A stretch of 64,000 bases of DNA, from the NCBI RefSeq assembly GCF_006345805.1, contig NC_043001.1, positions 5,270,001 through 5,334,000 on the forward strand. The letters are read 5' to 3'. The position numbers are program-made. Numbering within the stretch: the first letter of the stretch is position 1; the number at the start of each line of letters is the position of its first letter. This DNA is from Octopus sinensis (lineage: Eukaryota). Of this stretch, positions 57,228 through 58,788 are shown in pieces.

Positions 57228-58788
57228 TTGTTATCGCCATCTAATATGGCATTCTTATAAAAATAAGAAAAAAGCTGACGCTTATTAGCTCCATGAGGCC
57301 ATCGCCTTAAGTTAGCTATTTGATACACAAACTGTATCCATATAACCTTTGAACAAGGGGGTCAGTCGCTCCACACTACTTGGCTACGCTGCTGAAAAGG
57401 GGCAATACCCCGAAACGCGTCTGTAGCTGCCGGCCAAGTAGTGTGGAGCGACTGACTCCTTGTTCAAAGGTTATATGGATACAGTTTGTGTATCAAATAG
57501 CTAACTTAAGGCGATGGCCTCATGGAGCTAATAAGCGGTCAGCTTTTTTCTTATTTTTATAAGAATGCCATATTAGTATGGCGATAACAAATATTTTCCG
57601 GGAACGCTGCCGTTGTTCTCTTTTAGAGAGACTTAGTAATTTTAATATTTCTATTATTGAAAACAAGTGGATGTATTCCACCGAAGCTAGGTAAATAAAA
57701 CCTTTGAACAGAGATGTCGGAAGCGACACCTACTGGTTTGGCTACGCTGCATTGAAAAGGGGCAATACCCCGAAACGCGTCTGTAGCTGCCGGCCAAGTA
57801 GTGTGGAGCGACTGACCTCCCTTGTTCAAAGGTTATATGGATACAGTTTGTGTATCAAATAGCTAACTTAAGGCGATGGCCTCATGGAGCTAATAAGCGG
57901 TCAGCTTTTTTCTTATTTTTATAAGAATGCCATATTAGTATGGCGATAACAATATTTTCCGGGAACGCTGCCGTTGTTCTCTTTTAGAGAGACTTAGTAA
58001 TTTTAATATTTCTATTATTGAAAACAAGTGATGTATTCCACCGAAGCTAGGTAAATAAAACCTTTGACAGAGATTGTCGGAAGCGACACCTACTGGTTTG
58101 GCTACGCTGCATTGAAAAGGGGCAATACCCCGAAACGCGTCTGTAGCTGCCGGCCAAGTAGTGTGGAGCGACTGACCTCCCTTGTTCAAAGGTTATATGG
58201 ATACAGTTTGTGTATCAAATAGCTAACTTAAGGCGATGGCCTCATGGAGCTATAAGCGGTCAGCTTTTTTCTTATTTTTATAAGAATGCCATATTAGTAT
58301 GGCGATAACAAATATTTTCCGGGAACGCTGCCGTTGTTCTCTTTTAGAGAGACTTAGTAATTTTAATATTTCTATTATTGAAAACAAGTGGATGTATTCC
58401 ACCGAAGCTAGGTAAATAAAACCTTTGAACGAGATTGTCGGAAGCGACACCTACTGGTTTGGCTACGCTGCATTGAAAAGGGGCAATACCCCGAAACGCG
58501 TCTGTAGCTGCGGCCAAGTAGTGTGGAGCGACTGACCTCCCTTGTTCAAAGGTTATATGGATACAGTTTGTGTATCAAATAGCTAACTTAAGGCGATGGC
58601 CTCATGGAGCTAATAAGTCGGTCAGCTTTTTTCTTATTTTTATAAGAATGCCATATTAGTATGGCGATAACAATATTTTCCGGGAACGCTGCCGTTGTTC
58701 TCTTTTAGAGAGACTTAGTAATTTTAATATTTCTATTATATATATATATATATTATATATATAATATATATATAATATATATATATAT

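What the first reader, a model, noticed from the sequence alone, without database searches (positions are those of the whole stretch)
57385..58739. 360-bp tandem hammerhead array: candidate retrozyme / circular-RNA system
Seen: about 3.8 almost identical non-coding units inserted in (TA)n, each with a minimal type I HHR; predicted cuts after C57421, C57781, C58141 and C58502 give 360/360/361-nt monomers. Known: non-LTR retrozymes in other animals are tandem few-hundred-bp HHR repeats that yield circRNAs and are thought to spread by rolling reverse transcription; palindromic helix III (ACGCGT) permits double-hammerhead cleavage between neighbouring units. Inference: a young, possibly active family; I do not know of its description in this lineage. 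Unit differences are mostly 1-nt indels that may be sequencing error.
Basis: partly seen in the sequence, partly recalled or inferred. Interest (0 to 1): 0.9.

Follow-up and report, generated by a model that had tools for sequence, protein, structure and literature searches.

The report
Tandem hammerhead-ribozyme retroelement array
A 360-base repeat carrying a variant self-cutting hammerhead RNA sits in a TA microsatellite with scars typical of Penelope-type retroelement insertion, so it looks like an ordinary but recently inserted member of the known animal retrozyme class.

Summary
The repeat is real: period 360, 3.8 copies, 98% matches, bounded by (TA)n, and the cut sites and 360/360/361-nt monomers are as stated.

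Two corrections:
- The ribozyme core is not canonical. It reads UUGAAAA, the U3-A8 covariant of C3-G8. No Rfam hammerhead model matches it. Only 3 of the 4 motifs are complete; the first lacks 2 nt.

Unconstrained folding gives helices I and II with an open core. A two-unit transcript pairs the palindromic helix III hexamers into a double hammerhead.

Tandem units, an upstream inverted truncated copy and a (TA)n target are the published insertion signature of Penelope-like elements (PMC8557442).

Best reading: a non-coding, non-autonomous retrozyme-type element inserted by reverse transcription.

Self-cleavage, RNA circles, dispersed copies and lineage could not be tested. No eukaryotic genome or transcriptome collection was open.

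It is a new member of a known kind, of moderate interest.

The parts
57190..57227 (.). Left (TA)n flank. Its last 4 bases (ATAT, 57224-57227) are shared with the outer end of the inverted copy, giving a junction microhomology.
   Evidence: TRF; sequence
57228..57384 (-). Inverted, 5'-truncated partial copy, the reverse complement of unit positions 12-171 counted from the cut site. With 57434-57590 it forms a ~157-bp near-perfect palindrome whose loop holds the first hammerhead.
   Evidence: blastn (98% over 160 columns, E 5e-73); the repeat finder (I1-I4, I7-I9); alignment
57380..57384 (.). TTGGC, the 5-nt overlap between the inverted copy and the first direct segment. The same pentamer is the 5' strand of the stem that closes the hammerhead domain in every unit.
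   Evidence: Overlapping HSPs
57380..57427 (+). Hammerhead A, damaged. A 2-nt gap relative to the other units leaves the box CUGAAAA (57392-57398, a C3/A8 mismatch) and breaks helix I. Helix II, GAA, the helix III hexamer (57415-57420), C17 (57421) and the 3' strand of helix I are intact.
   Evidence: Alignment; fails the descriptor; coordinates
57422..57781 (+). Monomer 1 (360 nt, cut site to cut site)
57746..57787 (+). Hammerhead B, complete:
- helix I: 57746-57751 with 57782-57787
- core box: 57752-57758
- helix II hairpin: 57759-57771
- GAA: 57772-57774
- helix III hexamer: 57775-57780
- C17: 57781
   Evidence: Descriptor; coordinates; folds
57782..58141 (+). Monomer 2 (360 nt)
58106..58147 (+). 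Hammerhead C, complete (core 58112-58118, helix III hexamer 58135-58140, C17 58141)
58142..58502 (+). Monomer 3 (361 nt)
58467..58508 (+). Hammerhead D, complete (core 58473-58479, helix III hexamer 58496-58501, C17 58502)
58503..58739 (+). 3' partial unit (unit positions 1-237). It ends in TAT, which is shared with the right microsatellite.
58737..58862 (.). Right (TA)n flank. No target-site duplication can be read because both flanks are the same microsatellite.
   Evidence: TRF

Best explanation
The locus is a non-coding, non-autonomous retroelement of the animal 'non-LTR retrozyme' kind. It consists of a 360-nt unit repeated head to tail, each unit carrying a type I hammerhead ribozyme.

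The ribozyme:
- Helix I is 6 bp and helix II is 4 bp.
- Helix III is too short to form alone: 2 bp plus a 2-nt loop, together the palindrome ACGCGU.
- The core carries the U3-A8 covariant of the C3-G8 pair.

Proposed mechanism (all steps inferred):
1. A multimeric transcript folds so that neighbouring ribozymes pair their palindromes into a 6-bp helix III, forming a double hammerhead.
2. [quoted passage not shown]
3. A host RNA ligase would circularise the monomers.

Origin of the DNA copy (inferred from anatomy):
- It was made by target-primed reverse transcription at a nicked (TA)n tract, with priming on AU-rich internal sites of a circular or multimeric RNA.
- The upstream inverted arm arose in one of two ways. 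Either the second nicked strand also primed cDNA (twin priming), or the cDNA snapped back on the stem that closes the ribozyme domain.
- Tandem units plus an inverted 5'-truncated copy plus a (TA)n target is the published signature of Penelope-like element (PLE) integration. A PLE reverse transcriptase/GIY-YIG endonuclease encoded elsewhere is therefore the likely mobiliser.
For: Shown by the sequence:
- The array has period 360 and 3.8 copies.
- Three complete hammerheads are present, 0 elsewhere in the 64 kb and 0 in 150 shuffles. A stricter palindrome-requiring descriptor gives the same 3 loci and 0 in 100 shuffles.
- Twelve conserved positions are canonical: U4, G5, A6, A9, G10.1, C11.1, G12, A13, A14, A15.1, U16.1 and C17. 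The two deviant positions (3 and 8) change together so that a Watson-Crick pair is kept.
- The unconstrained MFE of the monomer forms helix I in this register, helix II and an unpaired core. The circular fold has z = -4.8 against 200 shuffles.
- Cofolding two ribozyme domains gives -49.1 against 2 x -21.5 kcal/mol, with an intermolecular hexamer helix.
- The 466-nt two-ribozyme transcript adopts the double hammerhead without any constraint.
- The array is non-coding. None of the 6 ORFs of 66-85 aa scanned inside the direct-repeat array has a Pfam hit, and the 85-aa one has no homologue. A 103-aa ORF that reaches into the inverted arm (57050-57361, minus strand) also has none.
- The inverted truncated copy and the three junction microhomologies (ATAT, TTGGC, TAT) are.

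From papers:
- The natural U3-A8 covariation occurs in about 1,300 motifs tied to Schistosoma PLEs. Small palindromic helix III variants occur in shrimp, rotifer, fly and mosquito elements (PMC4209133, main text through the start of Materials and Methods read).
- Retrozymes are 150-450 bp tandem repeats with GC below 50% and yield self-paired circles. They are present in molluscs, crustaceans and insects (PMC7229834, Results and Discussion read).
- PLE insertions are partial tandems, often with an inverted 5'-truncated copy at the 5' end, and show a (TA)n bias that hides target-site duplications (PMC8557442, passages read).
- Vertebrate retrozymes group with PLE terminal repeats (bioRxiv 10.64898/2026.07.22.740005, abstract and first part of Results read).
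Against: - No Rfam hammerhead model matches, even at E<=10 on 71 nt.
- All copies are identical, so there is no covariation evidence from this locus.
- PLE-type minimal hammerheads showed only low cleavage in vitro (PMC4209133).
- No other copy lies in the 64-kb window.
- No PLE reverse transcriptase or GIY-YIG domain appears in any of the 205 ORFs scanned. That is all ORFs of >=60 aa after 102 low-complexity ORFs of 307 were dropped.
- The 30-40-bp 'tail' often seen at PLE ends is not evident.
- The indel-only differences show a noisy assembly, so the copy number, the 2-nt gap in hammerhead A and even the inverted arm could be affected by assembly error.
- A single locus cannot show mobility.
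Confidence: 0.65

Rival explanations
1. The units are terminal repeats (pseudo-LTRs) of an autonomous Penelope-like element. This locus would then be a coding-region-less remnant or solo-repeat array of that element rather than a separate retrozyme family.
For: - The U3-A8 core is so far reported in print for PLE-associated motifs (PMC4209133).
- The insertion scars are PLE-like (PMC8557442).
- Xenopus retrozyme families are sister to PLE terminal repeats (bioRxiv 10.64898/2026.07.22.740005).
Against: - Three full units follow each other with no ORF between them. No RT or GIY-YIG domain is in the window.
- Helix sizes (6 bp and 4 bp, no bulge after A9) are those of the canonical retrozyme-type motif. 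PLE minimal motifs are described with a 7-8 bp helix II and a 4-5 bp helix I (PMC4209133).
- This rival is not exclusive of the best explanation.
Confidence: 0.25
2. This is a purely local satellite. One ribozyme-bearing sequence was amplified in place by unequal exchange or replication slippage, with no RNA intermediate and no present activity.
For: - It is the only copy in 64 kb.
- The units are essentially identical.
- The 2026 preprint discusses local amplification of such units into minisatellites (passage).
Against: - Slippage does not explain an inverted truncated copy joined at a 5-nt microhomology.
- It does not explain both outer ends falling on AU-rich unit positions inside one (TA)n tract.
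- Three intact ribozymes with intact helices would not be expected in a decaying satellite, though the array is too young for decay to show.
Confidence: 0.15
3. This is partly an assembly artefact. The unit is real, but the copy number, the 2-nt gap or the palindromic left arm come from noisy or chimeric long reads.
For: All differences among copies are 1-nt indels, about 1% of positions, with no clear substitution. This is typical of unpolished long-read consensus (my own knowledge).
Against: - The inverted arm starts in the microsatellite and ends exactly on the natural stem pentamer.
- It carries its own indel pattern.
- A chimeric read would rarely reach the consensus.
Confidence: 0.12
4. 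The hammerhead likeness is inactive or coincidental, and the repeat has no ribozyme function.
For: - There is no Rfam match.
- The core is non-canonical.
- Related minimal motifs have low in vitro activity (PMC4209133).
Against: - There are 0 hits in 150 and in 100 shuffled windows.
- The two deviant positions co-vary.
- The G10.1-C11.1 pair, the GUC site, the palindromic helix III and the spontaneous double-hammerhead MFE are all present.
Confidence: 0.1

Closest known systems
Metazoan non-LTR retrozymes (Cervera and de la Pena 2020, PMC7229834)
   Same: - Tandem non-coding repeats of a few hundred bp (here 360; mussel 350-390), with one type I hammerhead per unit.
- GC below 50% (here 0.41).
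- No LTRs.
- The predicted circle is highly self-paired and leaves the ribozyme free to fold.
   Different: - The core is U3-A8 instead of C3-G8.
- Most invertebrate retrozyme ribozymes are reported to cleave efficiently, whereas this helix III should need a dimer, as in amphibians.
- Expression and circles are not shown here.
Newt/axolotl satellite-2 type hammerheads (HHR_Amex1/2, PMC7229834)
   Same: - The repeats are 330-350 bp.
- Helix III is a 1-2 bp stem with a small palindromic loop.
- Cleavage is efficient only as a dimer.
   Different: - Those have a canonical core and come from a vertebrate host with up to about 120,000 copies.
- Here there is one locus in 64 kb and the host looks like an invertebrate.
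Minimal hammerheads of Penelope-like element terminal repeats, including the U3-A8 variant of Schistosoma Cercyon (PMC4209133)
   Same: - The U3-A8 covariation is shared.
- Both have the G10.1-C11.1 pair.
- Both have palindromic 15.x/16.x positions and a proposed dimeric mode of action.
   Different: - Those are described with a 7-8 bp helix II, a 4-5 bp helix I, an extra base after A9, and mostly as single dispersed motifs.
- Here helix I is 6 bp, helix II is 4 bp, there is no extra base, and the arrangement is a regular tandem.
PLE insertion architecture (Craig et al. 2021, PMC8557442)
   Same: - Partial tandem copies.
- An inverted 5'-truncated copy directly at the 5' end.
- A (TA)n target that hides any target-site duplication.
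   Different: - There is no RT/GIY-YIG ORF and no 30-40 bp tail here.
- The (TA)n bias is stated for Naiads, which lack canonical hammerheads.
Plant LTR retrozymes (PMC4918200, listing and abstract only; features as summarised in PMC7761336 passages)
   Same: They are non-autonomous, ribozyme-flanked units that yield circular RNA.
   Different: - The plant elements have type III hammerheads within ~350-bp LTRs.
- They have a primer binding site, a polypurine tract and 4-bp target duplications.
- Their circles are 600-1000 nt.

Membership tests
Hammerhead ribozyme, type I | Conserved core nucleotides U4 G5 A6 A9 G12 A13 A14 A15.1 U16.1 H17, plus the G10.1-C11.1 pair | tested here: met
   All are present in 3 of 4 motifs. 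The first motif lacks position 3 and the adjoining helix I base.
Hammerhead ribozyme, type I | Canonical C3 and G8 | tested here: not met
   Positions 3 and 8 are U and A. This covariant keeps the pair and is reported in nature (PMC4209133).
Hammerhead ribozyme, type I | Three helices around the core, with helix I open towards the rest of the RNA | tested here: met
   Helices I (6 bp) and II (4 bp) appear in the unconstrained MFE. Helix III forms only between two copies.
Hammerhead ribozyme, type I | Score above threshold with the curated Rfam covariance models | tested here: not met
   There is no hammerhead family at gathering score or at E<=10.
Hammerhead ribozyme, type I | Site-specific self-cleavage | not testable with these tools
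   This needs in vitro transcription of monomer and dimer.
Non-LTR retrozyme | Tandem repeats of 150-450 bp, each with a type I hammerhead | tested here: met
   Period 360 and 3.8 copies; one motif per unit.
Non-LTR retrozyme | Non-coding, without LTRs, and GC below 50% | tested here: met
   The 6 ORFs scanned inside the direct-repeat array have no Pfam hit. There is no homologue of the 85-aa ORF. GC is 0.41. Primer binding site and polypurine tract were not searched for separately.
Non-LTR retrozyme | Predicted highly self-paired circular RNA | tested here: met
   Circular MFE is -108.6 kcal/mol, z = -4.8 against 200 shuffles.
Non-LTR retrozyme | Expressed as linear and circular monomer RNA | not testable with these tools
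   No transcriptome was available.
Non-LTR retrozyme | Many copies dispersed in the genome, co-existing with PLEs | not testable with these tools
   Only the window is held: 0 further copies in 64 kb and no PLE ORF in it. The prokaryote collection gave 0.
Penelope-like element (autonomous) | ORF with reverse transcriptase and GIY-YIG endonuclease between the repeats | tested here: not met
   There is no such domain in the 205 ORFs scanned. The RVT_1 hits belong to LINE-like pieces with an AP endonuclease or zf-RVT.
PLE-type insertion | Partial tandem plus an inverted 5'-truncated copy at the 5' end | tested here: met
   definition from PMC8557442 passages.
PLE-type insertion | Microsatellite target, with (TA)n reported for Naiads | tested here: met
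   (TA)n lies on both sides.
PLE-type insertion | 30-40 bp tail extension at one end | tested here: inconclusive
   No extra non-unit, non-(TA)n sequence lies at either junction. The paper says 'often', not always.

The most novel reading that the evidence does not exclude
This array is a very recent product of rolling reverse transcription of a 360-nt circular RNA by a Penelope-like element's enzymes. Its three microhomology junctions preserve the integration intermediate: priming from (TA)n on internal AU-rich sites, and strand switching at the ribozyme's own closing stem. If so, it would be direct structural evidence at a retrozyme locus for who mobilises animal retrozymes and how. The 2020 review says the repeats themselves give no clue to this. 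It would also be a natural, active U3-A8 hammerhead of canonical dimensions.
Probability: 0.25. Interest if true: 0.55.

Novelty: new member of a known kind. Interest (0 to 1): 0.35.

Why it matters
If the reading holds, the locus links two bodies of work. Retrozyme papers infer PLE dependence from co-occurrence and sequence relatedness. This single array shows the PLE insertion signature directly on a ribozyme-only element.

The passages I read in the two retrozyme papers I checked for it and in the 2020 review do not describe inverted truncated copies or microsatellite targets for retrozymes.

It also shows that curated hammerhead models miss U3-A8 tandem ribozymes, so such elements are probably under-counted in genome scans.

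Beyond that, it is an expected kind of repeat in an invertebrate genome.

Tried and rejected
- **Rfam.** Three scans gave only chance-level hits to unrelated families (coronavirus 5'UTR, miRNAs on the TA tract, RT-2, DUF3577), all far below their gathering scores.
- **The DNA search.** I wrote a descriptor script instead.
- **Exact scan.** The 30-nt core was scanned against the bacterial/archaeal genome collection, with 0 hits. That collection holds no animal genomes, so this says little.
- **Protein-level proxy for other copies.** The 85-aa ORF across a unit has no candidate sharing words. This is weak evidence, because gene callers would rarely call such an ORF.
- **Apparent unit likeness in the right flank (58873-58893).** It is not significant: 15 of 200 shuffles reach its score.
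- **Minus strand.** No ribozyme was found by the descriptor or by Rfam.
- **Lineage.**
  - The LINE endonuclease ORF gave 4 unnamed hits.
  - The Atlas gave clusters labelled Annelida or Arthropoda.
  - The mariner ORF's best named hit is Oratosquilla oratoria at 82% identity, with octopus hits at 55-58%.
  - Mariners move horizontally, so this is only a hint of a malacostracan crustacean. The very high microsatellite load is compatible with that (my own knowledge).
- **Biochemistry of the U3-A8 swap.** Searches for C3U/G8A wording found nothing usable, and PMC1986816 is not held. Only its title was seen, in a reference list. I recall that the swapped pair keeps some activity, but that is not from a call.
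- **Loop similarity.** I also recall that the UAC 5' of helix I and the helix II loop resemble the loop contacts of canonical type I motifs. This was not tested.
- **Supplements.** Supplementary figures of PMC4209133 and PMC7229834, which show the crustacean and shrimp motifs, were closed. Whether this very family is already drawn there stays unchecked.

Full report
**What is there.** Tandem Repeats Finder reports one array at 57380-58739 with period 360, 3.8 copies, 98% matches and 1% indels. It lies between (TA)n tracts at 57190-57227 and 58737-58862 (sequence). A blastn of one unit against the window resolves the anatomy:
- an inverted partial copy at 57228-57384 (unit positions 171 to 12, counted from the cut site)
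- a short direct piece at 57380-57421 (positions 317-360)
- three full units at 57422-57781, 57782-58141 and 58142-58502 (360, 360 and 361 nt)
- a final partial unit at 58503-58739 (positions 1-237)

No other copy exists in the 64 kb. The window holds no N. All differences among copies reduce to about 16-17 one-base indels plus one 2-nt gap. The few 'mismatches' in the MAFFT columns are offset indels, so there is no clear substitution. That pattern suggests consensus error in a long-read assembly (my own knowledge). The copies may be truly identical, and the exact copy number is not fully secure.

**The ribozyme.** In units B, C and D the layout is as follows (coordinates for C):
- helix I 5' strand: 58106-58111
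- seven-base core box reading UUGAAAA: 58112-58118
- helix II hairpin of 4 bp with a 5-nt loop: 58119-58131
- GAA: 58132-58134
- palindromic hexamer ACGCGU: 58135-58140
- C17: 58141
- helix I 3' strand: 58142-58147

Twelve conserved positions are canonical. Positions 3 and 8 are U and A instead of C and G, a joint change that keeps the pair. Cervera and de la Pena found exactly this covariation in about 1,300 motifs linked to Schistosoma PLEs (PMC4209133, read). That C3 and G8 pair in the active fold is stated in PMC3884650 (passages).

No Rfam hammerhead model matches: not at gathering score, nor at E<=10 on 1.75 kb or on 71 nt. My own relaxed descriptor allows either pair at positions 3 and 8. 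It finds 3 loci in the window on both strands, all in the array. It finds none in the rest of the window and none in 150 dinucleotide shuffles. A version that also requires a palindromic helix III gives the same 3 loci and 0 in 100 shuffles. The three loci are copies of one sequence, so this is one independent occurrence, and there is no covariation evidence from this locus itself.

The first motif (57380-57427) has a 2-nt gap. The gap leaves CUGAAAA (a C/A mismatch at 3/8) and breaks helix I, so this motif fails the descriptor.

**Folding.**
- The unconstrained MFE of the 360-nt monomer forms helix I in the U3-A8 register, helix II and an unpaired core. A 3-nt bulge and a 5-bp closing stem (TTGGC with GCCAA) lie beyond helix I.
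- The circular fold is -108.6 kcal/mol against -82.8 +/- 5.4 for 200 dinucleotide shuffles, z = -4.8.
- Helix III alone would be 2 bp with a 2-nt loop and cannot form. Two ribozyme domains cofold to -49.1 against 2 x -21.5 kcal/mol, with the two hexamers paired.
- The 466-nt stretch 57715-58180 pairs 57775-57780 with 58135-58140 in its unconstrained MFE. Each helix I is then built from the 5' strand of one copy and the 3' strand of the other.

That is the double hammerhead. In it, the core of one copy cuts the site of its partner. The intact site after 57421 could therefore still be cut using the core of motif B (inference).

**How the DNA copy arose (inferred).** Both outer ends fall on AU-rich internal positions of the unit and share bases with the microsatellite: ATAT at 57224-57227 and TAT at 58737-58739. 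Neither end is at the ribozyme cut site, so the template was a circle or an uncut multimer rather than a processed linear monomer.

The top strand to the left carries antisense unit sequence running from position about 175 down to 12. It then switches to sense sequence at 317-321 through the shared pentamer TTGGC (57380-57384; overlapping HSPs). Two routes give exactly this product:
- cDNA synthesis primed from both nicked strands of the (TA)n target, with the two cDNAs annealing at the pentamer (twin priming)
- a single cDNA whose 3' end snapped back on the stem that closes the ribozyme domain and copied itself

The second route explains why the switch sits on that stem.

Craig et al. describe PLE insertions in these terms (PMC8557442, passages):
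- 5'-truncated partial tandems
- 'often' an inverted 5'-truncated copy immediately at the 5' end
- a microsatellite bias, (TA)n in Naiads, that hides target-site duplications

The locus shows all three. It does not show the 30-40 bp tail that they say is often present.

**Context.** No ORF in the window has a GIY-YIG domain or a PLE-type arrangement. I scanned all 205 ORFs of at least 60 aa that passed a complexity filter, after dropping 102 of 307 as low complexity. The reverse-transcriptase hits belong to LINE-like remnants. The six ORFs of 66-85 aa scanned inside the direct-repeat array have no Pfam hit, and the longest has no homologue.

The window is AT-rich, at 24-42% GC in 2-kb windows. 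It is crowded with microsatellites and decayed transposons. The best named relative of its mariner remnant is from the mantis shrimp Oratosquilla oratoria, at 82% identity. That is a weak hint of a crustacean, not an identification.

**Comparison with what is known.** Animal non-LTR retrozymes are defined as non-coding tandem repeats of 150-450 bp, each with a type I hammerhead and with GC below 50%. They are expressed as self-paired circles of about 170-400 nt, and are reported from cnidarians, molluscs, rotifers, flatworms, annelids, crustaceans, insects and amphibians (PMC7229834). This locus meets every sequence-level criterion. Expression, circles, dispersal and co-existence with PLEs could not be tested.

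It differs in the following ways:
- Unlike the cleavage-tested coral and mussel retrozymes, it needs a dimer, as amphibian satellites do.
- Unlike described PLE minimal motifs, it has canonical helix sizes and no bulged base.
- It shares the U3-A8 core with PLE minimal motifs.

A 2026 preprint argues from co-occurrence and phylogeny that vertebrate retrozymes derive from PLE terminal repeats. The 2020 review states that the repeats show no motif that reveals their mobiliser (PMC7761336, passage). Term searches in the 2020 paper and the 2026 preprint found no discussion of inverted truncated copies or microsatellite targets for retrozymes. A library search on those terms found no other retrozyme paper making the point. 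Supplements were closed, so a drawing of this family there cannot be excluded.

**Verdict.** This is a new member of a known class, with two details worth recording:
- a U3-A8 core that curated models miss
- PLE-type insertion scars on a ribozyme-only array

Activity and mobility remain untested.

Noticed in passing
window 29941-32587 (+): A decayed LINE-like retrotransposon. One ORF has an AP-type endonuclease domain (Exo_endo_phos_2), followed by several frame-shifted ORFs, one with an RVT_1 fragment. The closest database proteins are unnamed, at 56-62% identity.
   Followed up: partly
window 52446-53353 (-): A Mos1/mariner-type transposase remnant (HTH_48 plus Transposase_1) split over two overlapping frames. 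It is 86% identical to an unnamed 350-aa cluster, and the best named hit is Oratosquilla oratoria at 82%.
   Followed up: partly
window 26581-27550 (+): Fragments of a Tc1-like transposase (HTH_23, HTH_Tnp_Tc3_2, DDE_3) in different frames.
   Followed up: no
window 11484-12946 (-): Reverse transcriptase pieces (RVT_1) followed by a zf-RVT zinc-binding piece. This is another decayed non-LTR element, not a PLE.
   Followed up: no
window 58945-59057: An imperfect ~113-bp palindrome (33-nt arms 85% complementary; inner 17-nt arms 88%). It sits between the right (TA)n of the array and the next (TA)n tract at 59046-59402, and there is no other copy in the window. It is possibly a small foldback or MITE-like insert in the same microsatellite.
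   Followed up: partly
whole window, e.g. 55000-55223, 59046-59402, 3245-4180, 6260-7100, 13838-14500: There is an extreme load of microsatellites and low-complexity tracts: (TA)n, (TG)n, and trinucleotide runs that translate as poly-S/E/D/L. Of 307 ORFs of >=60 aa, 102 are low complexity.
   Followed up: no
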